In this document: in pieces, positions 6,170 to 64,000 of the stretch | Layout: each line of letters begins with the position of its first letter | Position numbering within the stretch: position 1 is the first letter of the stretch | Assembly: GCA_016872355.1 (NCBI GenBank) | Contig: VGZY01000001.1 | Coordinates: forward strand, 33,803 to 97,802 | DNA from: SAR202 cluster bacterium | Lineage (GTDB): Bacteria; Chloroflexota; Dehalococcoidia; Lucifugimonadales; VGZY01 | DNA length: 64,000 bases | Direction: 5' to 3' | Notes under the pieces: generated by a model | What the model saw: only the letters and a program-made list of their open reading frames with translations | Database searches by the model: none | What the model was told of the DNA's origin: nothing | Translations under genes and position numbers: made by a program

Positions 6170-6187
6170 GTGGTACAGGAGCCGCCA

Positions 6188-7330
6188 ATGGACTTCGAAG
6201 TCGATGTTATTCGCACGTTCGTAGAGCCCGTGAAGCTCAGGGACGGCACGCTCTTGGGGCTGGACTGGAAGACCCTTCACGGGATGGTCTCCACCGACAG
6301 CGGCAGGACGTGGCGGGACTCCGGCCCCCTGCGCGACGCATCCGGACGCGTGCTGGAGGGCTCCGGCAAGTCCAACGGCTACGTCGTCCACATCCTGCGA
6401 CTCAAGACAGGGGAGATCGCAGTGAAGTACGATGTCGGCCACTCGCGTTACGATCTGGGCGGGTCGCCTCGCAGCACGTCGTACTTCACGAGGTCGGCGG
6501 ACGAAGGGCAGACCTGGTCCGCGCCGGTGCAGATCACGCCGACCGGCACGCCATCGCACACGTCATGGGTAGTGGAGATGGCGGACGGGCGGCTCGTCCT
6601 TCCAAACGAGTACGCGTACTCGCAACCGGGTGAAGATAAAAGGCCCAAGTTCGCCATATGCACCTCGTTCAATTCCGTCGACGGCGGGCGCACGTGGCAG
6701 GAGTCGCGCGACGCAATATGGCTGCAGAACGACGACGGCACGGTGCTGGACTATTGCGAGATTCCCACGGCCACGGAGACGCCCTCCGGCGGGATGCTGA
6801 TGCTTGCGCGCACACGGTACCAGCGCATGGGGGAGAGCCACAGCGCGGACGGCGGTCACGCCTGGAGTCCGATGCGTCTGAACGGCCTCGTATCAAGCTG
6901 CGCGGAGATATTCCTCGATCGCGTTCCCGGCAGCAGCGACATCTATTGCATCTGGAACCAGGCGACTGCCGAAGAGGTGGCGAAAGGCTACTACCGCGCC
7001 CGCCTCACGTCTGCGATCTCCCGCAACGGCGGCGTGACCTGGGAGAGCTTCCGGACGGTCGCAGCTTCGCCGGGAATGGAGGAGGTTGCCCGCATCCAGC
7101 CCGCCGGCACTCCCGTCTACACGCCCGTCCCCGGCGCGGTCCCCACTGAGCAGGAAATGGTCGCCCCTGAGTTTCACATGAACCGCGCCCCCCGCGCAAA
7201 GGTCATCGACGGCACGCTCTACGTCGCCTACACGCACCGCCGTTACAGATACGTAAACGGCAAGCAGACGAAGCTGCACGATGCGGTGAAACTCAGGGCA
7301 GTGCCGGTGGAGTGGCTGTGGGGGAAATAG
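6188..7330 (+). CDS. BNR/Asp-box repeat protein (sialidase-like beta-propeller)
   Basis: Five SxDxGxTW Asp-boxes: STDSGRTW, SADEGQTW, SVDGGRTW, SADGGHAW, SRNGGVTW. AGGAG RBS before the ATG at 6188. Confidence 0.75.
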   Translation: MDFEVDVIRTFVEPVKLRDGTLLGLDWKTLHGMVSTDSGRTWRDSGPLRDASGRVLEGSGKSNGYVVHILRLKTGEIAVKYDVGHSRYDLGGSPRSTSYFTRSADEGQTWSAPVQITPTGTPSHTSWVVEMADGRLVLPNEYAYSQPGEDKRPKFAICTSFNSVDGGRTWQESRDAIWLQNDDGTVLDYCEIPTATETPSGGMLMLARTRYQRMGESHSADGGHAWSPMRLNGLVSSCAEIFLDRVPGSSDIYCIWNQATAEEVAKGYYRARLTSAISRNGGVTWESFRTVAASPGMEEVARIQPAGTPVYTPVPGAVPTEQEMVAPEFHMNRAPRAKVIDGTLYVAYTHRRYRYVNGKQTKLHDAVKLRAVPVEWLWGK

Positions 7331-7412
7331 TGAATTTAGAATAGTGAATAGTGAATTATCGGACGGGAACGATCCGGCTGTTCAATCCACTATTCACTAT
7401 TCTAAATTCACT
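7330..7412. terminator. long hairpin filling the gap between convergent genes; arms are tandem AGTGAAT-type heptads
   Basis: gtgaatttagaatagtgaatagt (7330-7352) is the exact reverse complement of actattcactattctaaattcac (7390-7412), a 23-bp stem. The flanking stop codons are at 7328-7330 and 7415-7417. Confidence 0.75.
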
Positions 7413-7414
7413 AT

Positions 7415-9285
7415 TCACACGTACCACCCAGACTGTATGCGGTACATCTCCGCGTAGCGCCCGCCACGCTCCATTAGCTCCGGATGAGAGCCGTCCTCCA
7501 CGATCTTGCCGCCGTCCAGAAACACGATGCGGTCCGCTAGCCGTGCCGAGCCGAGGCGGTGGGAGATGAGCAGGACGGAGCGGCCCCGGGCGATATCGCG
7601 GAAGTGGCGGTATACCTCCACCTCCATCTTGGCGTCCAGGGCTGCGGTGGGCTCATCGAGCACGAGAACTGACGCATCTCGAATATAGGCCCGAGCAATC
7701 GCCACCTTCTGCCATTGGCCAGATGAGAGGTCCTGCCCCTTGTCGTCATAGGTCTTGCCCAGCATCGTCTCGTATTTGGCAGGAAGGGCTGATATTACCT
7801 CGTCCGCTCCGCTCTTTGACGCAGCAACGGCGATTGCGTCGGTGTCCTCGATACGGCGTAGCTCGCCGAAGCCGATGTTCTCTCGCGCGGAGGCGGCGTA
7901 TTTCACGTAGTCCTGAAATACCGGCGCTACCCGCCTCCGCCACTCAGACGGCACTATCAAGGCCAGGTCCTCGCCATCCACCGTGATGCGGCCCGATGTC
8001 GGCTTGTAGAGTCCGAGCAGCAGCTTCGCGAGTGTCGACTTCCCCGCGCCGTTCTCGCCGACGAGCGCGATGCTCTTGCCGGGCTCCAGCACCAGGTCGA
8101 TGCGGTCCAGCACGGGCTTCGTGGCACCGGGGTATATAAAGGTCACCTGCTCGAACCGTACCGCCGGGACATCCGCGGCCAATGGCAGCTTATCGTGTGC
8201 GCCATTTTCCCGATGCCGTTAGTGGCCGTAGCGGCTGCGGGGAAGGGCGTCCACTCCTCCTCGGCCTTGAGTTAGTCCAGGACGTCCTTCATGTATGAAA
8301 TCGAGCCTGTAACAGACCGGTACCCGCCAAGGGCCATGGATGCCGAGCTCATGAACTGCTGGGCCGCCGTAAGGAAAGCAGCGAATAGTCCGAGCGTGAG
8401 ACGGCCCGTCACGATAAGGACTACTGACCAGGTGATCACCAGCGCATACGTAAAATGCTCGAAGAAGGTCCTGGCCACCGCACCGCGAACCCGCTCCCTG
8501 GCAAGAGACAGCCGGTCGTTGCGCAGCTCCGCGACGAGCTTCTTTCGCCTGCCGAGCAGGAAGTCACCAAGGCCAAACAAGCGCACCTCAGCGGCCGCGG
8601 GTCTATCCGCCATCAGCTTGCCCAGGTAGTCGATATATCGAAGTGTCGGGCTGTGCTTCGACTTCAGCACCCTGATCCTTTCAAAGATGCGCTCGCCGAT
8701 TACGTGCGACGGGGTGATGCCGATCAGCAAAATGACTGGGAACCATATGTTCACGGAGCCCAGATAGATAAGAAGCCCTATGGCGGTGATTGCGTCCGAA
8801 GGTATTCGAAGCATCCACTGAATCGGCACCCACAGCCGGTCCACACCGAACTGGGCGTGGTGAAGCAGGTCGTAGTATTCGGCCTGCTCGAATGCCTCCA
8901 GCGGCAACCGGCTCGCCTTTATCATCAGGCGCTCGTTCACGCCGGCCTGGAAGATCTCCATAATGTCCGGAATCAGCCAGCGGTGGACGAATATGCCGGA
9001 CAATGCCTGCACAAGGTTGGCCGCCAGAAACGCTACGAGCCATATCGTAGCAGTGGTCAGATTCGAATCGCCCTTGAGAATGCCGACGGCGCCGTCGATG
9101 AGGCCACGAAGGAATACGGTCATTAGAATGGGCGCAAGCCCTGTGATCAGGATCATGAACGCCGCGATCAGCATTTCGCGACGGCCGATCTCCCACATGA
9201 GCTTCATGTAGCGCCAGAAGTATATGGCCTGGTCCCTGGATCTCAGGCGTTGCCTATCGCGTGACCATTGCGACTGCCTAATCAT
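7415..9285 (-). pseudogene. ABC exporter, fused permease/ATPase (MsbA/MdlB type), disrupted by an in-frame TAA plus a frameshift
   Basis: The TMD ORF 8272-9285 and NBD ORF 7415-8182 equal one half-transporter when compared with the intact 616-aa paralogue next door. TAA at 8272-8274 is followed by still-alignable LKAEEEW. The frame then changes near the T4 run 8206-8209 before LPLAADVPAVRFEQVTFIYPG. Walker A GENGAGKST, signature LSSGQWQ, Walker B VLVLDEP. Confidence 0.8.
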
Positions 9286-22691: not shown

Positions 22692-22743
22692 GGGTGCTGG
22701 GTGCTGGGTGCTGGTTCGAACCTAACACCTAACACCTAAAACC
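22692..22743. repeat. heptad-armed imperfect palindrome
   Basis: (GGTGCTG)x3, GTTCGAAC centre, then (CCTAACA)x2 and CCTAAAA. The reverse complement of the right unit (GTGTTAG) differs from the left unit (GTGCTGG) by two transitions. Confidence 0.7.
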
Positions 22744-23130
22744 CTACTTCTTCTTGGCCGTCTCCTCGGGGAACTCGGCCACGAAAGCCGCCTCCACCAG
22801 CATGTTGCTCTGCAGGCCCACGCCGTAGCACCGGCGGTTCACCGGGTGGCCCGCGAAGTACTCCGCCCACACCGCGTTGATCTCCTTCACGTCCCTGTTC
22901 ACGTGCTGCAGGTAGATGCGCGCCGAGCACACGTTGTGCTTGTTCAGCCCCGCCTCCGCAAGGACCTCGGTCAGCTGTTTGAAGATCTCCTTCATCTCCG
23001 CCGCGGGGCCGCCCTCAACCGGCTTCGACTGCCCGGGCGGCATGCCGGTCAGCACCGTCTCCAGTACTTTTCCGCTGTGGATGACAGCCGAGCTGAACGG
23101 AAAGCCCTCTTTGCTCCTCAGGAACTTCAT
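22744..23130 (-). CDS. RidA/YjgF/endoribonuclease L-PSP family protein
   Basis: 128 aa with the typical family layout (...ARIYLQHVNRDVKEINAVWAEYF...RRCYGVGLQSNMLVEAAFVA). Confidence 0.75.
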   Translation of the reverse strand: MKFLRSKEGFPFSSAVIHSGKVLETVLTGMPPGQSKPVEGGPAAEMKEIFKQLTEVLAEAGLNKHNVCSARIYLQHVNRDVKEINAVWAEYFAGHPVNRRCYGVGLQSNMLVEAAFVAEFPEETAKKK

Positions 23131-29824: not shown

Positions 29825-30249
29825 GGCGCGAATGGCGTTGGTCGGCGGGAGACGCGGGCCGCGGGACGGTGAGGGCGGGCGCTGTGCGCCATTACAATGA
29901 CGAGACCTCGGTCCCTACCCTTGCCACCCTGAGTCCCGATTCCATCGGGACGGCGGGTCTAATGGCGTTGCCTGCGTATGGCGGTCCAGACTGTAGATTT
30001 GGGTTTTTAGACCCTTCGCTGTCGCTCAGGGTAGCAAAAAGGGGGTGACGTGTAGTTCCCAGTGTAACGGGACGCTGCCGCCTTTACGGCCCTCCCCTAC
30101 CCGCTCGCCAGCGCCCTTACCCACCCAGTATCCGGCAGACCCAACGCTGCGGCGGCCAGGGGAGACTTACGGCGAGCTGCTTGCGCTGCCAAATCCGAAG
30201 CGCCTTCCCACGGCTATTCACCGTACCCCCTACCCTGTCCCCCGTACCC

Positions 30250-31314
30250 TTACCCCGGCTTCACGAAGGTCAGCACCCTGGCCGGGTTCTCCACCATGAT
30301 CTTGTTCACCTGGTCGCCAGTGAAGCCGCGCTGGCGGAGGCGCGGGACGATGTTCTTCACAATGTACATGTAGCCGTGGCCGCCGTATGAGACCAGGCGG
30401 TCCTTGGTGTAGATGTCGTGGGCGATGACAACGCGCTCGCCGAAGCCCTCGTCCACGAGGTACTTGATGTCGTTCATGCGGCGGGCGTCGCTCGGCATGT
30501 CGAACGCCGGGTTCTGGTCGTAGTATGAGACCTCGCGGCCGAACAGGTCCCACTCAAGGTAAACGCCCGTCTCCGCAAGCTTCCTCATGCTCTCGCGGTC
30601 TGCGTAGTTGCGGTCCATGTGGGCGATGATCGTGCGGTTCAGGTCCGCACCCACTTCGCGCAGGATGCCGACGACCTCCATGCAAGCGGCGACGTTGCGG
30701 CCGGGGTGGATAAGGAGGCCTGCGCCGGTGGCCTTCTGGGCGCGGCCGGACGCCCGCAGCACCTTGCGCTCGTTCGGCGTCAGCGGCCACGAGCAACCCA
30801 CCTCTCCGATAACGCCCGCCTTGATGCCCGTGCGCCCGACGCCGACGGTGATATCGCTCACGATCTCGTTGAGGATATCGTCCTCGGTCTTCTTATCCAT
30901 GTCCGCGGGATGCATGAGGCCGACGTAATACGACGCGCCCATGACGATGTTGAAGCCCACCTCGCGGGCGATGCGCGCCAGCCCCACCGGGTCGCGGCCT
31001 ATACCGATAGTCGTCGCCTCCACAACCGTCCCGCCGCCGTGCTGCTTGAGCAGCTTGAGCTCGTAGACCGCAGTCTCGATGCTGCGCAGGCGGATATTCT
31101 CGGCTATGAGTGTGTCGTAGTGTCGGGCATAGGCTAGCGACTCCTGGGTGACGGGGCCGTAGAACATCTCGCGCGCGCTCGCCTCGCGCGGCGGCGGGCG
31201 CAGCTCCGTGATGTCCACGAGCAGGTGCTCGTGAGTTGAGGTCATCCCCATCTTGTCGGGGGTGATGGCGCCGGTGACGGTCTGGACGAGCCCGGTCAGG
31301 TCGAACTTGGCCAT
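30250..31314 (-). CDS. phosphotriesterase-related (PTER/aryldialkylphosphatase family) amidohydrolase
   Basis: MGMTSTHEHLLVD has the HxH metal ligands. 354-aa TIM-barrel-sized protein with later HPG and AHD ligand-like positions. Confidence 0.75.
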   Translation of the reverse strand: MAKFDLTGLVQTVTGAITPDKMGMTSTHEHLLVDITELRPPPREASAREMFYGPVTQESLAYARHYDTLIAENIRLRSIETAVYELKLLKQHGGGTVVEATTIGIGRDPVGLARIAREVGFNIVMGASYYVGLMHPADMDKKTEDDILNEIVSDITVGVGRTGIKAGVIGEVGCSWPLTPNERKVLRASGRAQKATGAGLLIHPGRNVAACMEVVGILREVGADLNRTIIAHMDRNYADRESMRKLAETGVYLEWDLFGREVSYYDQNPAFDMPSDARRMNDIKYLVDEGFGERVVIAHDIYTKDRLVSYGGHGYMYIVKNIVPRLRQRGFTGDQVNKIMVENPARVLTFVKPG

Positions 31315-33513: not shown

Positions 33514-33645
33514 TCCGCAGATTACGCAGATTACGCAGATCTTTTCGGACACTGGCAGGCGGGTTGCCTTGGAGAGAATAACCACGTATTCTTGGCCAAG
33601 AATGCAGGCGACAGCGTCGGCTGCTCAAAAAATCTGCGTAATCTG
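33514..33645. repeat. MITE-like palindromic element with 9-mer tandem arms
   Basis: The left arm ccGCAGATTACGCAGATTACGCAGATc pairs over 15 nt with the right arm ATCTGCGTAATCTGC (about 33631-33645). A 20-nt copy of the left arm (tatccgcagattacgcagat) recurs at 47783-47803. Confidence 0.65.
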
Positions 33646-33736
33646 CTCCGATGGAATACGGAGCCCCTGTTAACATTTTGGGAGGAGCCCCGAGTCCTGT
33701 CGGGGTGGATAGACTCCCCCGGAGGGTGCATTAACA

Positions 33737-34897
33737 ATGGCGCTGCCTGCACGTATGCGGTTCGGCATCTTCATGGCCCCCTTTCACACGGTGGGAGAGA
33801 ACCCCACCCTTGCGCTGGAGCGCGACCTTGAGCTCATCCAGTGGCTGGACCAGTTGGGGTACGACGAGGCGTGGGTGGGAGAGCACCACAGCGGCGGGTG
33901 GGAGACCATCGCCTCGCCGGAGCTCTTCCTGGCCTTCGTGGCGGAGCGCACGCGGAACATCAGGCTCGGCACGGGCGTGGTCAGCCTCCCCTACCACCAC
34001 CCGCTGATGGTCGCCAACCGCATGGTGCTGCTGGACCACCTTGCCCGCGGCCGCGTGATGATGGGCGTCGGCCCGGGCGCGCTGGTGTCGGACGCGTACA
34101 TGCTCGGTATAGACCCTCCCACGCAGCGAGCGAGGATGGACGAGTCGCTCGGCGTGATCATGCAGCTCCTGACAAGCCCGGATCCCGTGACCTGCCGGTC
34201 GGAGTGGTTCACGCTGGTCGAGGGACGCCTCCACCTGCGGCCGTACACGCAGCCGCACTTCCCCATCGCTGTCGCGGCCGTCGCTTCGCCGTCCGGGATG
34301 ATCGTCGCCGGCAAGCACGGCGCGGGCGTGCTCTCCATCGCCGCCAATTCCGGCGACCGTATCAAAACGAAGCTCTCCGAGTTCTGGGCGATAGCTGAGG
34401 AGACGGCGGCGAAGAGCGGCAAGAAGATGAACCGCGCGGACTGGCGTCTGGTCACCCACGCCCACATAGCCGAGACCCGCAAGGAGGCGGTCGAGCAGGC
34501 GCGCGTGGCCGCCGGTGCCTACCAGCGCGGCTACTTCGAGCAGGTGATGGGCCAGGACGCCTACATAGACGGGCCGGCGGACAAAATCATCGACGCCAAG
34601 GTGGAGCGCGGCGAGTGGGTTGTCGGCACGCCCGACGATATGGTGGCGGCGATCAAGCGGCTGGACGCGGAGAGCGGCGGCTTCGGCGCGCTGCTCATCC
34701 AGGCGACGGAGTGGGGCACGCGCGAGCAGGTGCGCCGCAGCTACGAGCTCATCGCCCGCCACGTGATGCCGCAGTTCCAGGGTTCGCTAGAGAACATCGT
34801 CGCCTCGCGCGATTGGGCGGCGAGCAAGAAGGACGAGATGAAGGCACTCAAGGACCGCGCCATCAACAAGGCGAAGCAGGAGTATAAGGGGAGTTAG
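33737..34897 (+). CDS. LLM-class (luciferase-like) flavin-dependent oxidoreductase
   Basis: MRFGIFMAPFH...LGYDEAWVGEHHSGGWETIASPELFLA...RLGTGVVSLPYHHP is the typical LLM N-terminal TIM-barrel signature. Confidence 0.85.
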   Translation: MALPARMRFGIFMAPFHTVGENPTLALERDLELIQWLDQLGYDEAWVGEHHSGGWETIASPELFLAFVAERTRNIRLGTGVVSLPYHHPLMVANRMVLLDHLARGRVMMGVGPGALVSDAYMLGIDPPTQRARMDESLGVIMQLLTSPDPVTCRSEWFTLVEGRLHLRPYTQPHFPIAVAAVASPSGMIVAGKHGAGVLSIAANSGDRIKTKLSEFWAIAEETAAKSGKKMNRADWRLVTHAHIAETRKEAVEQARVAAGAYQRGYFEQVMGQDAYIDGPADKIIDAKVERGEWVVGTPDDMVAAIKRLDAESGGFGALLIQATEWGTREQVRRSYELIARHVMPQFQGSLENIVASRDWAASKKDEMKALKDRAINKAKQEYKGS

Positions 34898-34981
34898 CAG
34901 TGGGCAGTGGGCAGTGAGCAGTTAGCCAGCAGCCGTAGGGACGAACAGCCGATCCTCATGGGAACGATACAGGGAATAGAA

Positions 34982-38026: not shown

Positions 38027-39556
38027 TTGTCGGAAGCAGAAAGCAAGCTGATAGGCGATAGGCTCCAGAAGTTGCAGAGCCTTCGAGAGAAGGGCATCGA
38101 ACCCTACCCTACCCGGTACGACCGCTCACACACAACACAGCAAGCCATAGAGCTTCTGAAGCGCGCCGAAATCGAGGATGGCCCCAGGGGCATCGCTCCG
38201 ACAAACGATACACCGGCGCCTGCCCCAATCAAGACTGCGGACGTCTCCATCGCAGGGCGTATCGTGCGCTACCGGAAGATGGGGAAGGCGACCTTCATCG
38301 ACATCCTGGACGCGTCGGGCAAAATCCAGGCGCTGATGCGGCAGGATAACCTACCTGACTCTTATGACACGCTCAAGGACCTGGATATAGGCGACTGGAT
38401 GGGCATCACCGGCCCGGCCATGCGGACCAAGACCGGCGAGGCGACGATCGAAGTGAAGTCGTGGTTGGTGTTGTCGAAGTCGGTGCGACCTTTGCCGGAG
38501 AAGTGGCACGGACTGACCGACACCGAGCAGCGCTTCCGCCAGCGCTACCTGGACCTCATCTCCAACGAAGAGGCGCGCCGGGTAGCCGTCCTGCGTAGCA
38601 AGACGATCTCCGCCCTGCGCCGCTATATGGACGGGCGCGGCTTCATGGAGGTTGAGACGCCGGTGCTGGTGAACGTGCCTACGGGCGGCACGGCCAAGCC
38701 GTTCGTGACGCACTACAACGCGCTGGACAGCGACCTCTATCTGCGCATTGCGACGGAGCTATACCTCAAGCGGCTCATTGTTGGAGGGCTGGAGAAGGTG
38801 TACGAGATCGGCCGCCTCTTCCGCAACGAGGGGCTGGACCTCACGCACAATCCAGAGTTCACGACGATGGAGTCTTACGAGGCCTTCGCGGACTACAACG
38901 ACGTGATGAAGATGGTCGAGGACCTCTACTACACCCTGGCAATGGAAGTGCTGGGGAAGCCGACCGTGGAGATCGACGGCCACACCATCAACTTCACTCC
39001 GCCCTGGCCGCGCATAGACCTTTGCAGCGAGATCCTGAAGCGTAGCGGTATAGACATCCTCTCGCCTCAGCTTGCCGAGGTTGAAGGCCTCAAGGCCGCG
39101 ATGCAGGAGAAGGGATACGACGTCAAAAAGCAGATGAGCTGGGCCGGCATGGTGGACAAGCTCATTTCCCAGGACGTGGAGGCGCACCTTGTGCAGCCGT
39201 CCTTCCTGGTCAACTACCCCGTCCAGACATCGCCGCTTGCCAAGCGCAGGAAAGACAATCCCGCGCTAGTGGAGCGGTTCGAGGGGTTCGTGGTCGGCAT
39301 GGAGATTTGCAACGCTTTCAGCGAGCTTAACGATCCGGTGGACCAGCGGCGGCGGTTCGAGCAGCAGGAGGCGCTGCGGAATGTGTTCAAGGACGAGGAC
39401 ATGGACAGGCTGGACGAGGACTTCCTGGTGGCGATCGAGCACGGAATGCCGCCCACAGGCGGCCTCGGGCTCGGCATCGACCGGATGGTGATGGTTTTCT
39501 CCGGCCACAGGTCTATCCGCGAGGTGGTGCTGTTCCCGCAGATGCGGAACAGATAG
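38027..39556 (+). CDS. lysS: lysine--tRNA ligase (class II)
   Basis: OB-fold N-domain and class II motifs ([38 protein letters not shown]). TTG start at 38027. Confidence 0.95.
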
Positions 39557-39591: not shown

Positions 39592-39745
39592 GTTGCCACC
39601 CTGAGCCTCCCACTACCACCCTGGGCCATCATTGCCAGCTGAGCGCCATCATTGCCCCCTGACCGCCCTCATTGCCACCCTGCGCTAGCACTCAGGGTGG
39701 CAAGGGAAAGGCTCACGGTGGCAAGGGGAGAAATCAGGCCAATGG
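39592..39745. repeat. composite palindrome built from ~17-20-nt CATTGCCACCCTG-type repeats
   Basis: Forward copies: gttgccaccctgagcc, ctaccaccctgggc, catcattgccagctgagcgc, catcattgccccctgaccgcc, ctcattgccaccctgcgc. Centre tagca. Inverted copies: ctcagggtggcaaggg, ctcacggtggcaagggg, tcaggccaatggcgg. Confidence 0.7.
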
Positions 39746-43686: not shown

Positions 43687-43888
43687 ACATCCCTACCCTC
43701 TCCTGGCGGGCTTCGGCGGTGGCATTCGGGGGAACTGCCGCCGCCGGGGCCTGCGTATTGGCAGTCAGTCTTCCGGGTCTTGGATTGGCCGACTGCTAAC
43801 TGCCAACTGCTGACTGCCGTCCCCTTGACACCCCTGCCTCCGCTGCCTAGAATCCGCCGCGAGACGGATATCGGTCCAGGGAGGCCAC

Positions 43889-44862
43889 ATGCGCGTACTG
43901 GTTACAGGCGTTACCGGGAGCATTGGCGCTAATCTTGCTGCTGCCCTTGTAAAGGAGGGCCATTCAGTGCGCGGTCTCGTTTGGCAGCGGGACCCTCGCG
44001 TGGAGAAGCTCAGACCGCTCAACTTTGAGCTTGTCAACGGGACCGTAACGAACGTTGAAGATGTCAAGCGAGCCGTAGACGGCGTGGATGCGGTGTATCA
44101 TCTTGCTGCGGCCTTCCAGGGCGGCGGGCCGTTTACCACCGAAGAGTACTTCGAGATCAACGTTCGCGGTGTCTTCAACATGCTGGAGGCCGCAAAGGCG
44201 AATCCGAAGCTCAAGCACTTCATCATGGCCAGCACTGACTCCGTCTACGCCAAGAGCGCGCCGGGCGGCATGTCGGAGCTGGTGCACAGGACCGCACCCC
44301 GAAGTCGTTGGGTGGCTGGTACGGCCTTTCAAAAATCATGGGCGAGAACATGGTCGTGGGTTACCACAACGCAAGCAAAATGCCTGCGACAGTCATCCGC
44401 TTCCCCAACACCGTCGGCGCAGGAGAATTTCTCAAGTTCGCCGGCTTCTACATGAGCTCCTACAAGACCCGGCCGGAGATAACCCCGCTGTGGGATGGCA
44501 AAGAGAAGCTGGTGCTCATCACCGACGAGAATGGCCGTCCCTGGAAGAAGCACATGGGGGACGTGCGCGACGTTGTGCACGGCCTCGTATGCGCGCTCGG
44601 GAAGGAGCCGGCGTTCGGTCAGATCATCCAGCTTGGCGGACCGAAGGCGTTCACCTGGGACGAGGTGGTGCCGCACCTTTCGAAGCGGACCGGCATCCCG
44701 TACGTGACCGTGGCCTTCAAGGGCACCCCTTCCTGCTACGAGTTCGACCTGACAAAGGCGCGCACCCTGATCGGCTTCAAGCTTCAATACGACGGCGTCC
44801 GAATGATCGACGATGCGCTGGCATTCTCGAAGGGCCAGGACATAGGCGTCGTGCCGACGTAG
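43889..44862 (+). pseudogene. NAD-dependent epimerase/dehydratase (extended SDR), frameshifted paralogue
   Basis: VLVTGVTGSIGANLAAAL (GxxGxxG). The frame breaks near 44286-44292. The continuation DRTPKSLGGWYGLSKIMGE carries YxxxK and aligns with TAKTLTGWYGLSKAMVE of the intact paralogue downstream. Confidence 0.8.
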
Positions 44863-44956
44863 GTTGGGCCCACTCCCGACGCAGCCTCCGCCGGGGTGCG
44901 GGGTACAGGGTACGGGGTACAGTAACGCCGCAGCAGCCAGAATAACGGAGTCTTAA

Positions 44957-45928
44957 ATGCGCATACTTGTCACCGGCGTCACAGGCCGCATAGGGTCTAA
45001 CCTTGCCGCCGCGCTTGTTCAGGAAGGTCACCAGGTGCGCGGCCTTGTATGGCCGCGCGACCCCCGCACGGAGAAGCTCAGGCCGCTTGGACTGGAGCTG
45101 CTGGAAGGGACGATCACCAGCCCGGAGGACTGCAAGCGCTCTGTAGACGGCGTGGACGCCGTCTACCACCTCGCGGCGGCGTTCCAGGGCGGCGGTCCGT
45201 TCACCGTGGAGGAGTACTTCGATATCAACGTCCGCGGCACCTTCAACATGCTGGAGGCCGTGCGCCCCATCGCAAACCTGAAGCACTTCGTCGTCGCCAG
45301 CACGGACGCGGTGCTGGCCAAGTACCCGCCCGGCGGGATGAAGGGACCGGTCACGGAGAGCACGGCCAAGACGCTCACCGGCTGGTACGGCCTCTCCAAG
45401 GCAATGGTTGAGGAGATGGTCATCGGCTATTTCCGGACATACAAGACACCGACGACTGTGCTGCGCTTCCCGTACACCGTTGGGCCGGGCGAGTTCCTGA
45501 AGTTCGGCTCATTCTACCTGAGCAGCTACAAGGCGCGGCCCGAGGCCGCGCACCTGTGGGACGGCAAGGAGAAGCTTCTTATCATTTCGGACGAGAACGG
45601 GCGGCCATGGAAGAAGCACATGGCGAGCGTGCCCGACATCATCCACGGATGTATGTGCGTGCTCGGCAAAACGGCTGCGGCAGGCGAGCTCTTCCAGATC
45701 GGCGCGCCGTCGGCGTTCTCCTGGGACGACATAGTCCCCTACATCTCGAAGCGCATCGAGATGCCGTACGTTTCGGCGTCGATCAAGACAACGCCTACTT
45801 ACTACGAGTTCGACCTTACGAAGGCGCGCACCATCCTGGGCTTCAAGCCGCAACACGACGCGCGCAGGATGATCGACGAGGACATCGCGTACAACAAGGG
45901 CCAGAGTATCGGCGTCATACCGGTGTAG
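44957..45928 (+). CDS. NAD-dependent epimerase/dehydratase (extended SDR)
   Basis: ILVTGVTGRIGSNLAAAL and YGLSK. 323 aa. A close paralogue of the preceding gene. Confidence 0.85.
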   Translation: MRILVTGVTGRIGSNLAAALVQEGHQVRGLVWPRDPRTEKLRPLGLELLEGTITSPEDCKRSVDGVDAVYHLAAAFQGGGPFTVEEYFDINVRGTFNMLEAVRPIANLKHFVVASTDAVLAKYPPGGMKGPVTESTAKTLTGWYGLSKAMVEEMVIGYFRTYKTPTTVLRFPYTVGPGEFLKFGSFYLSSYKARPEAAHLWDGKEKLLIISDENGRPWKKHMASVPDIIHGCMCVLGKTAAAGELFQIGAPSAFSWDDIVPYISKRIEMPYVSASIKTTPTYYEFDLTKARTILGFKPQHDARRMIDEDIAYNKGQSIGVIPV

Positions 45929-50525: not shown

Positions 50526-50567
50526 CCAAGTCAAGGACCCCGACAATTGTCGGGGTCCTTGACTTGG
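50526..50567. terminator. long perfect hairpin between rsgA and the RHH gene
   Basis: ccaagtcaaggaccccgaca / tgtcggggtccttgacttgg, a 20-bp stem with a 2-nt (at) gap between the arms. Confidence 0.75.
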
Positions 50568-56202: not shown

Positions 56203-56317
56203 GCGTACCTCCCGGAGTACAGTAGTAGGGAGTTGGTAGGAGGGAGATCCGACCTTGTTCTTGGCTGTTGGCCAACTACCGACTACCTACTACCTACTGC
56301 GGCTGTTTCGCATCGCC

Positions 56318-57307: not shown

Positions 57308-57471
57308 GGCAGGTCAGGACAAAGACCTGATGTCCTCGGGGGTCTGAGAGGGCACCCCCCAGGCATGTCAGGACCCCGTTCGAATGTCCTAGGGTGTCCG
57401 AGAGTGACAAACCCGAGGCATGTCAGGACCCCGTTCGAATGTCCTCGGGTGTGCAGAGTGCCAAGCCCTCG
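57308..57471. repeat. three tandem ~55-bp repeats
   Basis: Units at 57308-57360 (diverged), 57361-57415 and 57416-57471. The last two share aggcatgtcaggaccccgttcgaatgtcct.gggtgt..agagtg. Confidence 0.8.
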
Positions 57472-60350: not shown

Positions 60351-60647
60351 GGGGTAAAGGGTCTGGGGTAAAGGGTAAGGTTTATGACGGAGCGAACACA
60401 AGAACGAAATCATTGCTATACGCCAACGCACTAACCCACTGTAGTGGCGCACTGCGTGCGCTCTCCGGTGGTCACCAATCACGTGGGTTACCCCGACGGA
60501 GCGCACGCAGTGCGCCACCACGCCATCCACCCACCCGTACGCGTTTCCCCCACTTTACCCCTCACCCTTCACCCCTTACCCTGTCCCTGTCTGTCACCGT
60601 ACCCCGTACCTTGCTCTGAACCCCGATGAGTCTGCGAATCGGGGCTG
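60351..60647. repeat. nested palindromic element occupying the ogg/patatin divergent intergenic region
   Basis: Outer G-rich arm ggggtaaagggtctggggtaaagggtaagg (60351-60380) against the C-rich arm cactttacccctcacccttcaccccttaccctgtccc (60551 onward). Inner 20-bp perfect stem gtggcgcactgcgtgcgctc (60444-60463) with gagcgcacgcagtgcgccac (60499-60518). Terminal hairpin ccccgatgagtctgcgaatcgggg (60621-60644). Confidence 0.8.
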
Positions 60648-61698: not shown

Positions 61699-61774
61699 AG
61701 AACTCACCAGTTCGGGGATTGACCAACTACTAACTACTGACTGCCGACTGCCTTCCATGCTACCATCAGTTACT

Positions 61775-63634
61775 ATGACTGCCAGCCACATACGCAACTT
61801 CTGCATCATCGCCCACATCGACCACGGCAAATCGACTCTCGCGGACCGCCTGCTCGAAATGACGCACGCGATCGACCCGCGCGAGATGTTTGAGCAGCGC
61901 ATGGACGCCATGGACCTGGAGCGCGAGCGCGGCATCACGATCAAGGCCAAGGCCGTGCGCCTCAAGTACCCGGCGAAGGATGGCACGAAGTACGAGCTCA
62001 ACCTCATCGACACTCCGGGCCACGTAGACTTCTCCTATGAAGTCTCCCGCAGCCTCGCCGCCTGCGAAGGCGCTCTGCTTGTAGTGGACGCCACGCAGGG
62101 CATACAGGCGCAGACGCTCGCGAACGTGCACCTGGCGATGGAGAACAACCTCGAGATCATCCCGATCATCAACAAAATCGACCTGGAGGCCTCGGAGCCT
62201 GAGCGCGTGGCCGAAGAGGTTATGAAGAGCTTCGGCTTCAAGAGGGACGAGATCCTCTTCGCCTCCGGAAAGACCGGCAAGGGCGTGGACCTGGTGCTGG
62301 AGGCGATTGTCCAGCGAATCCCGAACCCGCAGGGCGACGAAAGCGCCCCCCTGCGCGCGCTCATATTCGACTCCAAGTACGACGCCTACAAGGGCGTGGT
62401 TGCATATTGCCGCCTTGTGGATGGGCAGGTCCTGCCCACCTCCCGCGTCAAGATGATGACGAACAGCAAGGTGGCCGACATCCTCGAAATCGGCTGCTTC
62501 GTCCCGGACCTCAAAAAGGTCGATAGGCTCAGCGCCGGACAGGTAGGCTACATCGCCACCGGCTTCAAGACCGTGGGAGACGCCCCGGTAGGCGACACGA
62601 TCACTCTCGCCGAGGGCGGCGCGAAGGAGCCCCTGGCAACGTACAAGCCGCTCAAGCCGATGGTCTTCGCGGGCCTGTACCCTTCGGATGGCGAGGACTT
62701 CGGCAACCTCCGCGAGGCGCTGGAGAAGCTGCGCCTCAACGACGCCTCGCTCTCTTTCCAGCCCGAGTCGTCGCTCGCTCTCGGCACCGGCTTCCGCTGC
62801 GGCTTCCTGGGACTGCTCCACATGGACGTGGTGCAGGAGCGCCTGGAGCGCGAGTACAACATCAACCTCCTGGCCACCTCTCCGAGCGTGGAGTACAAGG
62901 TCATCATCACCGGCGGCGAGCTGGTGGAGGTGGACAACCCCTCCAAGCTCCCTCCCCCGGACCGCATCGAGGAGATCCAGGAGCCGTGGGTGGAACTCAC
63001 GGTCATCTCCCCGGCCAATTTCATCGGCACCATCATGGAGCTGGTCACCGGCAAGCGCGGAGAGTTCAAGAAGATGGAGTACATCCAGTACGGCCTCGTA
63101 GAAGAGAACGCCGCCGCGATGACGACCATCGGGCAGAACGTCTCCAAGACGCGCGTCATGATGGAGTTCACGATGCCGCTCTCCGAGATGCTCTTCGACT
63201 TCTATGACCAGTTGAAGTCGCGCACGCAGGGCTACGCGTCCATGGACTACGCCGTGGCCGGCTACCGCTCCGAGAAGCTGGTGAAGCTGGACATCCTGGT
63301 AAACGGCGACCCCGTGGACGCCCTCTCCACAATCGTCCACCGCGACAGCGCGCACGATCGGGGGCGCATCCTGGCATCCAAGCTCAAGGACCTCATCCCC
63401 AGGCAGCTCTTCGAGGTGCCCATCCAGGCCGCCATCGGCGGCAAGGTAGTCGCCCGAGAGACCATCCGCGCCATGCGCAAGGACGTGCTGGCCAAGTGCT
63501 ACGGCGGCGACATCACCCGCAAGCGCAAGCTCCTGGAAAAGCAGGCGGAAGGCAAGAAGCGCATGAAGCGCGTCGGCCGCGTAGAAATCCCCCAGGAAGC
63601 CTTCCTGAGCATTTTGAGAGTGGAAAACAAGTAG
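61775..63634 (+). CDS. lepA: translation elongation factor 4
   Basis: [36 protein letters not shown], and the LepA-specific C-terminus ...[32 protein letters not shown]. Confidence 0.97.
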
Positions 63635-63738
63635 AGCAGCAGTGAGCAGTGAGCAGTGGGCTAGCAGCCGTAGTGGCCCCGATGCATCGGGGCTCTCCAT
63701 GTCTTACCCACTGCTCACTACTCACTGCCCACTGCTGC
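63635..63738. repeat. heptad-armed palindrome between lepA and the SRP RNA gene
   Basis: Left arm agcagCAGTGAGCAGTGAGCAGTGGGctagcagccgtag. Central hairpin ggccccgatgcatcggggct. Right arm CCCACTGCTCACTACTCACTGCCCACTGCTGC. A left-arm-only relative sits at 34895-34940. Confidence 0.8.
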
Positions 63739-63749
63739 TATAATGAAAC

Positions 63750-64000
63750 CGGGTCGTGCTAAGCGGGGAGTTAGCGGTGTCCTGTACTCGCAATCCGCTC
63801 TAGCGAGGCTGAATTCCTCTATGAGGCCGCGTACCGGGGGCCACTGCCAATGGGTTCCGGTGTTGAGAGTTGGGTCCTGCGCAGCGGAAACCCGTGAACC
63901 CCGCCAGGTCCGGAAGGAAGCAACGGTAAGCGGACCTTTCCGGGGGCCGTGGGTCAGCCTGGCTCGAGTCGGGTCCACTGGTACGTCTTCGGGCGCGAAC
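63750..64000 (+). ncRNA. ffs: signal recognition particle RNA, long (Bacillus-type, Alu-domain-containing) form, 3' end beyond the window
   Basis: gggtcgtgctaagcggggag.tagcggtg.cctgta...gcaatccgctctagc matches the 5' Alu domain of B. subtilis scRNA as I recall it. ccaggtccggaaggaagca is the universal domain IV motif. TATAAT at 63739-63744 is just upstream. Confidence 0.85.

What the first reader, a model, noticed from the sequence alone, without database searches (positions are those of the whole stretch)
7330..7412. Family of intergenic palindromes whose arms are tandem heptads with locus-specific sequence
Seen in the sequence: many intergenic spacers are filled by long hairpins whose arms are themselves tandem 7-nt repeats, and the repeat sequence differs between loci. 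The two arms stay complementary or nearly so. Examples: AGTGAAT-type units with a 23-bp perfect stem (7330-7412); GGTGCTG x3 against CCTAACA x3, where the arms differ only by transitions (22692-22743); CAGTGAG/CAGTGGG (34895-34940 as a left arm only, and 63635-63738 complete); ACTGCTA/ACTGCCA (43759-43818, 61721-61752); GTAGTAGG against CCTACTAC (56218-56292); GGGGTAC/GGGTAAA and the complement CCCGTAC/CCCTTAC (44893-44923, 30205-30250, 60351-60612). Inference: structure rather than sequence appears to be conserved, which suggests replication slippage and templated repair of arms, or a REP/MITE-like system recognised by shape. They often sit exactly between stop codons of convergent genes or in divergent promoter regions, so they probably act as terminators or insulators.
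Basis: seen in the sequence. Interest (0 to 1): 0.6.

Follow-up and report, generated by a model that had tools for sequence, protein, structure and literature searches.

The report
Heptad-armed hairpin repeats, IVS-like
The hairpin at 7326-7417 is one copy of a genome-wide family of short repeats with 7-base-repeat arms, and the same arms enclose every copy of a small "rRNA intervening-sequence" (Avd-like) gene in this Chloroflexota genome, which ties a long-unexplained repeat class to a gene cassette; function is untested.

Summary
The arms at 7326-7357 and 7384-7415 are 31/32 complementary. The RNA fold is -47.9 kcal/mol (z -10.9). Period-7 arrays number 136 in the genome against 1 in shuffles.

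The sequences are not locus-specific. The focal element has at least 12 full and about 14 half copies, and 64 palindromes fall into four or five families. Each is built as G-rich heptads, a short core usually ending in CGGCTGTT, then C-rich heptads. In 62 of 64 the 5' arm is the G-rich one.

I found no compensatory arm evolution, no sense-strand G.U bias, no target duplications and almost no U-tracts. Templated arm repair and classical termination are therefore unsupported.

The palindromes abut stop codons (median 5.5 nt). They are enriched between convergent genes and depleted between divergent ones.

All six PF05635/TIGR02436 four-helix-bundle genes (S23p, Avd-like) in this genome sit between arms of these same families. 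In 29 other Dehalococcoidia genomes, 20 such genes have inverted, mostly heptadic flanks, against 0 of 47 control positions.

My best reading is that the palindromes are ORF-less relatives of IVS-like cassettes. Mobility and RNase III processing are inferred, not shown.

This scan found the armed gene cassette before on other DNA. Inverted heptamer arrays are in print for Xanthomonas.

The parts
7326..7357 (.). 5' arm of the focal palindrome (family C; units GAATAGT / GAATTTA). The TAG stop of the BNR-repeat gene 6170-7330 lies inside its first unit.
7358..7383 (+). Asymmetric core of the focal element (ATCGGAC...ATC + CGGCTGTT at 7375-7382). This core is conserved in the other copies, in either orientation.
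7384..7417 (.). 3' arm (CACTATT units). The TGA stop of the convergent ABC ATPase gene 7415-8182(-) overlaps its last unit.
22692..22743 (.). GGGTGCT x3 (family D), GGTTCGAACC centre, ACCTAAC x3 (GGTGTTR variant). The arms differ by two transitions per unit. The element abuts the stop of the RidA-like gene 22744-23130(-).
30205..30257 (.). Single C-rich arm (CCCGTAC / CCCTGTA type) at the stop of gene 30250-31314(-).
34895..34940 (.). Single G-rich arm (GCAGTGG x3.7, family A) starting on the stop codon of gene 33737-34897(+).
43759..43818 (.). Family A right arm (GACTGCY units) preceded by the core remnant GGATTGGCC. The left arm is almost gone.
44892..44923 (.). Single G-rich arm (GGGGTAC x4) between genes 44308-44862 and 44957-45928.
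56218..56307 (.). Degenerate family A palindrome: GTAGTAGG-type arm, TGGCTGTTGGCC core, CTACC-type arm, then CGGCTGTT at 56300-56307.
60351..60612 (.). GGGTAAA-type arm (60351-60378) and CCCTTAC / CCGTACC-type arm (60553-60612), 179 nt apart, with a nested 36-nt palindrome at 60441-60521. This is one of the few loci in a divergent spacer.
61721..61752 (.). Single C-rich family A arm just upstream of lepA.
63632..63742 (.). Complete family A palindrome (GCAGTGR arms, inner GC hairpin) between the lepA stop (63634) and the SRP RNA gene (63754-).

Best explanation
The 7326-7417 hairpin is one member of a set of dispersed repeat families in a 3.07-Mb Dehalococcoidia (Chloroflexota) genome. There are 64 palindromes and about 150 single arms. 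Each element is [G-rich heptads]n, then a short core that usually ends in CGGCTGTT, then [C-rich heptads]n. These are the ORF-less counterparts of an IVS-like cassette in which the same arms and the same junction enclose a four-helix-bundle gene (PF05635/TIGR02436; S23p, a homologue of the DGR accessory protein Avd). This is the build known from ORF-bearing intervening sequences of 23S rRNA.

Shown here: the family structure, the polarity, the position behind stop codons, the link to the gene family, and the absence of compensatory change.

Inferred: the elements spread as units by a mechanism that leaves no target duplication, and unit numbers then drift by slippage. They persist mainly right behind stop codons because insertions there are tolerated. 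The arms are complementary because both arms descend from a family consensus, not because pairing is repaired or selected. When read through by RNA polymerase, the 20-35-bp near-perfect stems should act as RNase III substrates or exonuclease blocks, giving mRNA processing or 3'-end definition. They should not act as intrinsic terminators.
For: Over-representation and pairing.

Dispersed copies with a conserved irregular unit order, core and sharp ends.

CGGCTGTT motif: 73 of its 205 genome copies lie within 50 nt of arrays, a 36-fold enrichment. All 36 arrays on its 3' side are C-rich.

Polarity: 62 of 64 palindromes have a G-rich 5' arm.

Gene link in this genome: all 6 PF05635 genes are bracketed by a G-rich and a C-rich array of one family. 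Families A, B, C and D are each represented. Of 274 arrays outside the cassettes, 211 match cassette arms at 12 or more of 14 positions, as do 97 of 105 paired arrays. With reversed arms as a null, 76 of 274 match. S23p identity tracks the arm family: A-A 70%, D-D 90%, between families 15-59%.

Gene link in other genomes: in 29 other Dehalococcoidia genomes, PF05635 genes have inverted flanks in 20 of 29 cases, against 0 of 47 control positions. Period-7 arrays lie on both sides in 14 of 29, against 0 of 47. Each genome has its own unit.

Cassette duplication: the C29 and C118 cassettes are 96-97% identical, lie in different flanks, and carry 7 and 10 units.

Position: stop-codon abutment with a median of 5.5 nt, convergent spacers enriched and divergent spacers depleted, p = 0.003.

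RNase III: the gene is present.

Literature: the Coxiella IVS is an S23p ORF in a 28-bp stem, is cut by RNase III, and carries variable tandem heptamers. PF05635 is homologous to Avd.
Against: No movement was seen. No close relative is available for filled-versus-empty sites; the next-best homologue of the flanking ABC ATPase is 70% identical.

Similarity between cassettes and ORF-less copies covers only the arms plus about 8-10 nt of the CGGCTGTT junction. No decayed S23p remnants lie in the loops: only 6 PF05635 matches at E <= 0.01. The gene could therefore be cargo that lands in pre-existing hairpin loops, where other repeats also nest.

No enzyme is identified. There is no reverse transcriptase in the genome, and the two IS200-type Y1 transposases carry different flanking repeats.

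Several S23p-positive genomes have few heptad arrays in 100-kb samples, and the genome-level association is only p = 0.08.

The control positions for the flank test were mostly coding sequence.

RNase III processing is untested.
Confidence: 0.55

Rival explanations
1. These are ordinary long simple-sequence repeats. Heptanucleotide arrays arise in place by polymerase slippage (Mrazek-type LSSR, cyanobacterial STRR). Inverted pairs arise because each of two neighbouring gene ends acquires its own array, or by local template switching. On this view nothing is mobile and the four-helix-bundle gene is irrelevant.
For: Heptamers are the commonest long SSR class in many bacteria (MacGregor's summary of Mrazek 2007). 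Unit numbers vary between otherwise near-identical copies. Many arrays are single: 152 of 216 loci. No TSD and no mobilising enzyme were found.
Against: Copies at unrelated loci share an irregular unit order (GAATAGT-GAATTTA-GAATAGT-GAATAGT-GAATT), a non-repetitive core and sharp boundaries. Thirty-six of 59 pairs lie between same-direction genes, where the 'one array per gene end' account does not apply. The CGGCTGTT junction and the 62/64 polarity are unexplained by slippage. Six of six PF05635 genes sit inside the arms.
Confidence: 0.15
2. These are REP/REPIN-type elements mobilised by a Y1 (RAYT/IS200-like) transposase that recognises the hairpin shape.
For: Two PF01797 genes are present. 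Single arms and inverted doublets coexist, as REP and REPIN do. No TSD is found, as expected for Y1 transposition. The flanks of the Y1 genes contain TCGGATCGAA / ATCGGACCGAA-like strings that resemble the palindrome cores.
Against: The Y1 genes are flanked by a different inverted repeat (GCCCTGAAAGGGC type, only 12 copies), not by heptads. They score as IS200/IS605 transposases. Four or five unrelated arm sequences would need one enzyme that reads shape only. The TCGGATCG 8-mer is not over-represented genome-wide: 74 copies against about 94 expected.
Confidence: 0.1
3. These are selected host elements: bidirectional transcription terminators, insulators or mRNA stabilisers kept for their structure. 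The gene association is a side effect.
For: The hairpins are very stable (-20 to -190 kcal/mol; z -10.9). They are placed 0-16 nt after stop codons in 63 of 72 gene ends. Convergent spacers are enriched. In Xanthomonas the analogous repeats are transcribed and show the same bias.
Against: Only 4 of 64 have a U-tract. Pairing shows no covariation. There is no sense-strand G.U preference, 28 against 30. Many copies are half elements that cannot fold. Thirty-seven loci lie inside genes. Orientation relative to transcription is only 53 against 31 for single arrays.
Confidence: 0.15
4. These are assembly or binning artefacts.
For: One single-sample JGI contig ends inside the focal palindrome, which shows that these repeats disturb short-read assembly.
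Against: A second independent contig reproduces three heptad loci with 1 mismatch in 7739 nt. Elements of the same build occur in many other genomes, including closed ones. Stop codons of real genes lie inside the arms.
Confidence: 0.02

Closest known systems
ORF-bearing and ORF-less intervening sequences (IVS) of 23S rRNA (Coxiella burnetii, Leptospira, Salmonella; Warrier et al. 2016, PMC4990558)
   Same: A long stem formed by terminal inverted repeats, with an optional S23p/PF05635 ORF in the loop. In Coxiella there are tandem heptamers next to the ORF whose number varies between strains, RNase III cuts in the stem, and the authors suspect a selfish or mobile origin. ORF-less IVS in Salmonella: from my own knowledge.
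   Different: Here the elements lie between, and sometimes within, protein-coding genes and not in rRNA helices 25 or 45. There are about 64 ORF-less copies against 6 gene-bearing ones. The whole arm is heptadic. Cleavage is untested.
Convergent pairs of GGGAATC heptamer arrays in Xanthomonas, and GGGGAYT arrays in Nostoc (Rehm et al. 2015, PMC4692102)
   Same: Tandem heptamers. There are 70-75 inverted pairs in 'convergent' orientation, meaning G-rich on plus and then G-rich on minus, the same polarity as here. They are intergenic, rare between divergent genes and close to stop codons.
   Different: Xanthomonas has one unit per genome and the authors interpret it through G-quadruplexes. Here there are several families, two of them AT-rich and lacking GGG runs. 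There is also a conserved CGGCTGTT core and a link to PF05635, which that paper does not mention.
STRR (short tandemly repeated repetitive heptamers) of heterocystous cyanobacteria, and Mrazek's heptanucleotide LSSR
   Same: Several heptamer families per genome, tandem and mostly intergenic (own knowledge of Mazel 1990; summary).
   Different: A different phylum. Inverted pairing is the rule for 37% of arrays here but 'only a few' in Nostoc and 1 of 170 in Beggiatoa.
REP / REPIN elements with RAYT
   Same: Short dispersed palindromic repeats occurring as singlets and inverted doublets, without TSD, close to stop codons.
   Different: The genome's Y1 transposase genes are not flanked by these repeats. 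The arms are tandem heptads and not a single imperfect palindrome.
(GATAGRA)n satellites of Chloroflexus aurantiacus (Subirana & Messeguer 2019, PMC6749651) and heptanucleotide elements of Geobacter metallireducens (PMC2700814)
   Same: Heptamer-derived arrays scattered through a Chloroflexota genome, 'probably transposed'. In Geobacter there are 49 four-heptamer elements and 15 paired five-heptamer sites.
   Different: These are surveys only. They give no hairpin architecture (Chloroflexus), no core motif and no gene link.

Membership tests
Heptanucleotide tandem repeats (LSSR / STRR class) | Tandem copies of a 7-nt unit, longer than composition predicts | tested here: met
   136 arrays against 1 in shuffles; period 8 gives 3; TRF rows
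Heptanucleotide tandem repeats (LSSR / STRR class) | Mostly non-coding location | tested here: met
   37 of 216 loci inside genes in an 88% coding genome
Xanthomonas-type convergent heptamer pairs | Two arrays of the same unit on opposite strands, G-rich strand first | tested here: met
   64 loci; 62 of 64 with a G-rich 5' arm
Xanthomonas-type convergent heptamer pairs | G-quadruplex-capable units (GGG in every unit, four units preferred) | tested here: not met
   Families B (ATGAAKT) and C (GAATAGT) have no G runs. Only D and the GGGGTAC and GGGCAGT types do.
23S rRNA intervening sequence (IVS) | Inserted in helix 25 or 45 of 23S rRNA | tested here: not met
   All loci lie between or in protein-coding genes. 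The rRNA operon of this MAG was not examined.
23S rRNA intervening sequence (IVS) | Terminal inverted repeats forming a stem of at least 20 bp around a loop that may hold an S23p ORF | tested here: met
   Stems of 16-50 nt; 6 of 6 PF05635 genes lie inside such arms
23S rRNA intervening sequence (IVS) | Excision by RNase III | not testable with these tools
   An RNase III gene is present.
REP / REPIN | A RAYT gene flanked by the same repeats | tested here: not met
   The two PF01797 genes are flanked by GCCCTGAAAGGGC-type inverted repeats, not heptads, and score as IS200/IS605
MITE | Terminal inverted repeats plus target-site duplication | tested here: not met
   Inverted arms are present. There is no direct repeat at the ends: own 2.8 against other-locus 2.97, p = 0.96.
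Intrinsic terminator | GC-rich stem followed by a U-tract | tested here: not met
   T4+ within 12 nt after either end in 4 of 64
Structured RNA under selection | Compensatory changes that keep pairs | tested here: not met
   88.6% paired, equal to the shuffled mean; 3 double-sided pairs against 3.1 expected; own-arm no better than other-copy; no Rfam hit other than SRP
Diversity-generating retroelement | Avd together with a reverse transcriptase and template/variable repeats | tested here: not met
   No PF00078 match in the 97.6% complete genome. The Avd model scores 33.6 bits, below its 80-bit cut-off.

The most novel reading that the evidence does not exclude
Heptanucleotide-repeat hairpins are a class of bacterial repeat that has stayed unexplained since the STRR of cyanobacteria. 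On this reading they are the miniature, ORF-less offspring, or the landing pads, of one widespread insertable cassette. That cassette carries a PF05635 four-helix-bundle (S23p/Avd-like) gene, and rRNA intervening sequences are simply its best-known insertions. The protein would act in trans on the heptad arms. This would link three puzzles: heptamer repeats, IVS, and free-standing Avd-like genes.
Probability: 0.33. Interest if true: 0.8.

Novelty: new variant of a known kind. Interest (0 to 1): 0.6.

Why it matters
Tandem heptamers are the commonest long simple repeats in many bacteria, yet their origin and role remain unknown. In this genome almost every paired array (97 of 105) belongs to a family whose arms also enclose a four-helix-bundle gene of the rRNA-IVS/Avd family. 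The same packaging recurs around that gene across the class.

This yields a concrete, testable hypothesis: does the protein bind the arms, do the elements move, and are the stems cut by RNase III?

It also matters in practice. The elements overlap stop codons, fill operon junctions and break short-read assemblies. The idea is not unique to this window, since the scan has met the armed cassette in other genomes. This genome adds a family-by-family match between ORF-less hairpins and gene-bearing cassettes.

Tried and rejected
1. Orthologous spacers in close relatives. None exist. Relatives are in the same order only. The next-best homologue of the flanking ABC ATPase is 70% identical. The exact-protein look-ups returned only the same population.
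3. Insertion into pre-existing host hairpins. The flanks outside the arms are not complementary: 3.49 against 3.62.
4. Target-site duplications. None found.
5. Autonomous IS with heptad ends. Searching for inverted arrays 300-6000 nt apart found no transposase. Instead it found the four-helix-bundle genes.
6. Reverse-transcriptase partner for the Avd-like protein. Not found.
7. RAYT link. The flanking repeats differ.
8. Simple deletion derivation of ORF-less copies from cassettes. Similarity stops about 10 nt inside the junction.
9. Papers by Elhai 2008 and Mrazek 2007 could not be opened. They are cited from memory or from MacGregor's summary only.
10. The metagenome-contig scan was not spent, because no close relative was in prospect.
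Full report
**What is at the site.**

The window is G000:C1:33803-97802 of a genome of 3.07 Mb, 62% G+C and 133 contigs. Its LepA is at most 73% identical to proteins of Dehalococcoidia/Chloroflexota MAGs.

At 7326-7417 two 32-nt arms are 31/32 complementary around a 26-nt centre. Both arms are period-7 arrays. The RNA fold is -47.9 kcal/mol, z -10.9.

The TAG stop of a BNR-repeat gene (6170-7330, +) lies in the first unit. The TGA stop of a convergent ABC ATPase gene (7415-8182, -) lies in the last unit.

**More than chance, and not an artefact.**

- Genome-wide there are 136 period-7 arrays (at least 3 units, at most 10% mismatch), against 1 in shuffles. Period 8 gives 3 and period 9 gives 10.
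- With a looser threshold there are 285 arrays at 216 loci.
- 105 arrays have a 13-14/14 reverse-complement partner within 250 nt, against 0 of 285 controls. This gives 64 palindromic loci.
- Only 37 loci lie inside genes, in a genome that is 88% coding.
- An independent JGI contig reproduces the three heptad loci around lepA with 1 mismatch in 7739 nt. Another contig ends inside the focal palindrome.

**The sequences are not locus-specific.**

Units fall into a few recurrent classes. The focal 90-nt element has at least 12 full copies at 76-91% identity and about 14 single-arm copies. All share the same irregular unit order (GAATAGT-GAATTTA-GAATAGT-GAATAGT-GAATT) and have sharp ends.

Clustering gives these families:

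- **A:** GYAGTNG arms, with the core GGCCAGAC...CGGCTGTTGGATTGGCC.
- **B:** ATGAAKT arms, with the core GGTCCGATCCGAAGGCC.
- **C:** the focal type.
- **D:** GGGTGCT arms, together with its transition variant GGTGTTR.
- A **GGGGTAC** type.

Elements also nest inside one another's loops.

The 8-mer CGGCTGTT is the most enriched word next to arrays. Of its 205 genome copies, 73 lie near arrays, a 36-fold enrichment. Arrays on its 3' side are always C-rich (36 of 36), and those on its 5' side are G-rich in 15 of 18 cases. Accordingly, 62 of 64 palindromes have the G-rich arm 5'. This is the polarity described as 'convergent' for Xanthomonas heptamer pairs.

- *Compensatory or templated arms.* On 13 aligned copies of family C, 88.6% of cells pair. 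The figure is also 88.6% after shuffling arms between copies. Three pairs changed on both sides, against 3.1 expected. In families B, C and D an arm pairs no better with its own partner than with the partner of another copy. Family A shows an excess only because it mixes GTAGT and GCAGT subtypes. Complementarity is therefore explained by descent from a family consensus.
- *RNA-level selection.* Mismatches that would be G.U on the sense strand number 28, against 30 on the antisense strand.
- *Terminators.* Only 4 of 64 palindromes have a T4+ run after the stem.
- *Position.* The outer edge lies a median of 5.5 nt from a stop codon (63 of 72 gene ends within 16 nt, 20 overlapping). It lies a median of 28 nt from starts. 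Paired loci number 36 tandem, 18 convergent and 5 divergent, against 38.4, 9.3 and 11.3 expected (p = 0.003). Divergent promoter regions are therefore avoided.
- *RAYT.* Two Y1 transposase genes exist. They score as IS200/IS605. They are flanked by a different inverted repeat that has only 12 copies.
- *Ends of the elements.* There is no target-site duplication and no host hairpin remnant around the elements.

**The link to a gene family.**

I looked for inverted arrays 300-6000 nt apart, hoping to find an autonomous element. This returned small genes that are PF05635/TIGR02436 four-helix-bundle proteins. This is the 'S23p' family of 23S rRNA intervening sequences, homologous to the DGR protein Avd.

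The genome has six such genes. All six lie between a G-rich 5' array that starts at the upstream stop codon and a C-rich 3' array of the same family:

- Family A: C8 and C21.
- Family B: C59.
- Family C: C91.
- Family D: C29 and C118.

In three of them (C/T)GGCT(G/C)T(T/C) stands just before the 3' arm, as in the ORF-less palindromes.

Further support in this genome:

- Outside the cassettes, 211 of 274 arrays, and 97 of 105 paired ones, match cassette arms at 12 or more of 14 positions. With reversed arms as a null, 76 of 274 match.
- Protein identity follows the arm family: 70% within A, 90% within D, and 15-59% between families.
- The two D cassettes are 96-97% identical, sit in unrelated flanks, and carry 7 and 10 units. 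This points to duplication of the whole unit followed by slippage.

**Generality.**

PF05635 occurs in 34 of 121 sampled genomes of the class. I examined one locus from each of 29 other genomes:

- 14 have period-7 arrays on both flanks and 8 on one flank.
- The two flanks are inverted repeats of each other in 20 cases.
- Among 47 control positions in the same loci, none has arrays on both flanks and none has inverted flanks (p = 9e-12). Those controls are mostly coding sequence.
- Every genome uses its own unit.

In 43-100-kb samples from 16 genomes (mostly 100 kb), densities of 5 or more arrays per 100 kb were seen only in S23p-positive genomes. That is 3 of 8, plus this genome at 9.3. None of 8 S23p-negative genomes reached that density (p = 0.08).

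Heptad arrays also flank lepA in other Chloroflexota MAGs.

**What is in print.**

- The Coxiella IVS is an S23p ORF in the loop of a 28-bp stem. RNase III cuts it, and it has 3-4 tandem heptamers whose number varies between strains. Its authors discuss a mobile origin.
- Rehm et al. describe 70-75 convergent heptamer pairs in Xanthomonas with the same bias in gene context. They do not mention the gene family and found no link to mobile elements.
- Chloroflexus has (GATAGRA)n satellites.
- Geobacter has heptamer elements.
- Beggiatoa has TAACTGA repeats with only 1 inverted set among 170.
- I found no paper that links ORF-less heptad hairpins to PF05635 cassettes.

**Earlier notes of this scan.**

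I reached the gene link independently and looked up earlier notes afterwards. They show that other agents met both the hairpins and the armed PF05635 cassette in other genomes. Later checks there priced the 'mobile insert' reading at 40-50%, noting that no enzyme, no duplication and no movement had been seen.

**Reading.**

*Shown:* dispersed families with a fixed architecture and polarity, lodged behind stop codons, without compensatory evolution, and sharing arms and junction with every four-helix-bundle cassette of the genome.

*Inferred:*

- The elements spread as units.
- The ORF-less forms are relatives, either miniatures or landing pads, of the cassettes.
- Slippage changes unit number.
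- Read-through transcripts are processed at the long stems by RNase III, whose gene is present.

*Against a simple 'deleted cassette' origin:*

- Similarity ends about 10 nt inside the junction.
- No gene remnants lie in the loops.
- No reverse transcriptase is encoded.

Noticed in passing
genome-wide, e.g. G000:C12:19474-19614, C50:3116-3312, C44:17231-17497; window 56300-56307: CGGCTGTT is also the 3' junction of a second abundant repeat. This is a double hairpin of the form CCTCTCCC..GGGAGAGG + stem + GTGAGGG, which earlier notes call BoxC-like. That repeat forms tandem mosaics and nests in the loops of heptad palindromes. Tandem duplicates CGGCTGTTCGGCTGTT occur at several sites.
   Followed up: partly
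G000:C50:7850-8650 and C73:5000-5700 (L081, L082): Two IS200/IS605-type Y1 transposase genes are each bracketed by long inverted repeats (GCCCTGAAAGGGC, CCCTGGGT). These repeats contain TCGGATCGAA / ATCGGACCGAA strings resembling the loop cores of palindrome families C and D. This may be chance.
   Followed up: partly
window 33516-33646: An inverted pair of a 9-nt tandem repeat (CGCAGATTA x2.8 against its complement) 81-98 nt apart, upstream of gene 33737-34897. It has the same architecture with period 9.
   Followed up: no
window 57330-57468: A 55-nt tandem repeat, 2.6 copies, 84% matches.
   Followed up: no
window 50526-50567: A perfect 42-nt palindrome with no spacer, next to the ParA/RHH region noted by another agent.
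   Followed up: no
window 39625-39679: A 20-nt tandem repeat (GCCATCATTGCCACCTGACC x2.8) downstream of the gene 38027-39556.
   Followed up: no
window 7393 = end of JGI contig Ga0194131_10026029 (L095): A single-sample assembly of the same population breaks inside the right arm of the focal palindrome. These repeats fragment short-read assemblies.
   Followed up: yes
window 7415-9285: The ABC transporter looks split. The 255-aa ATPase ORF (7415-8182) is preceded by a 337-aa ORF with no Pfam hit (8272-9285), whereas the sources name many of the homologues subfamily B proteins, and a few are named fused ATPase/permease subunits.
   Followed up: no
window 63754-64000: A large bacterial SRP RNA gene (RF01854, 159 bits) starts 12 nt after the lepA-proximal palindrome. 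In a relative (L004) a C-rich heptad array also lies between lepA and a sequence that resembles the start of the SRP RNA (not checked against Rfam).
   Followed up: partly
L115 (G106:C56): Two near-identical ends of a four-helix-bundle cassette flank a run of N. Cassette arms coincide with an assembly gap in that genome.
   Followed up: no
literature, PMC8700078: Strain-specific four-helix-bundle genes of an Arthrospira strain have their best hits (53-67%) in Chloroflexi. This hints at exchange of these cassettes between phyla.
   Followed up: no
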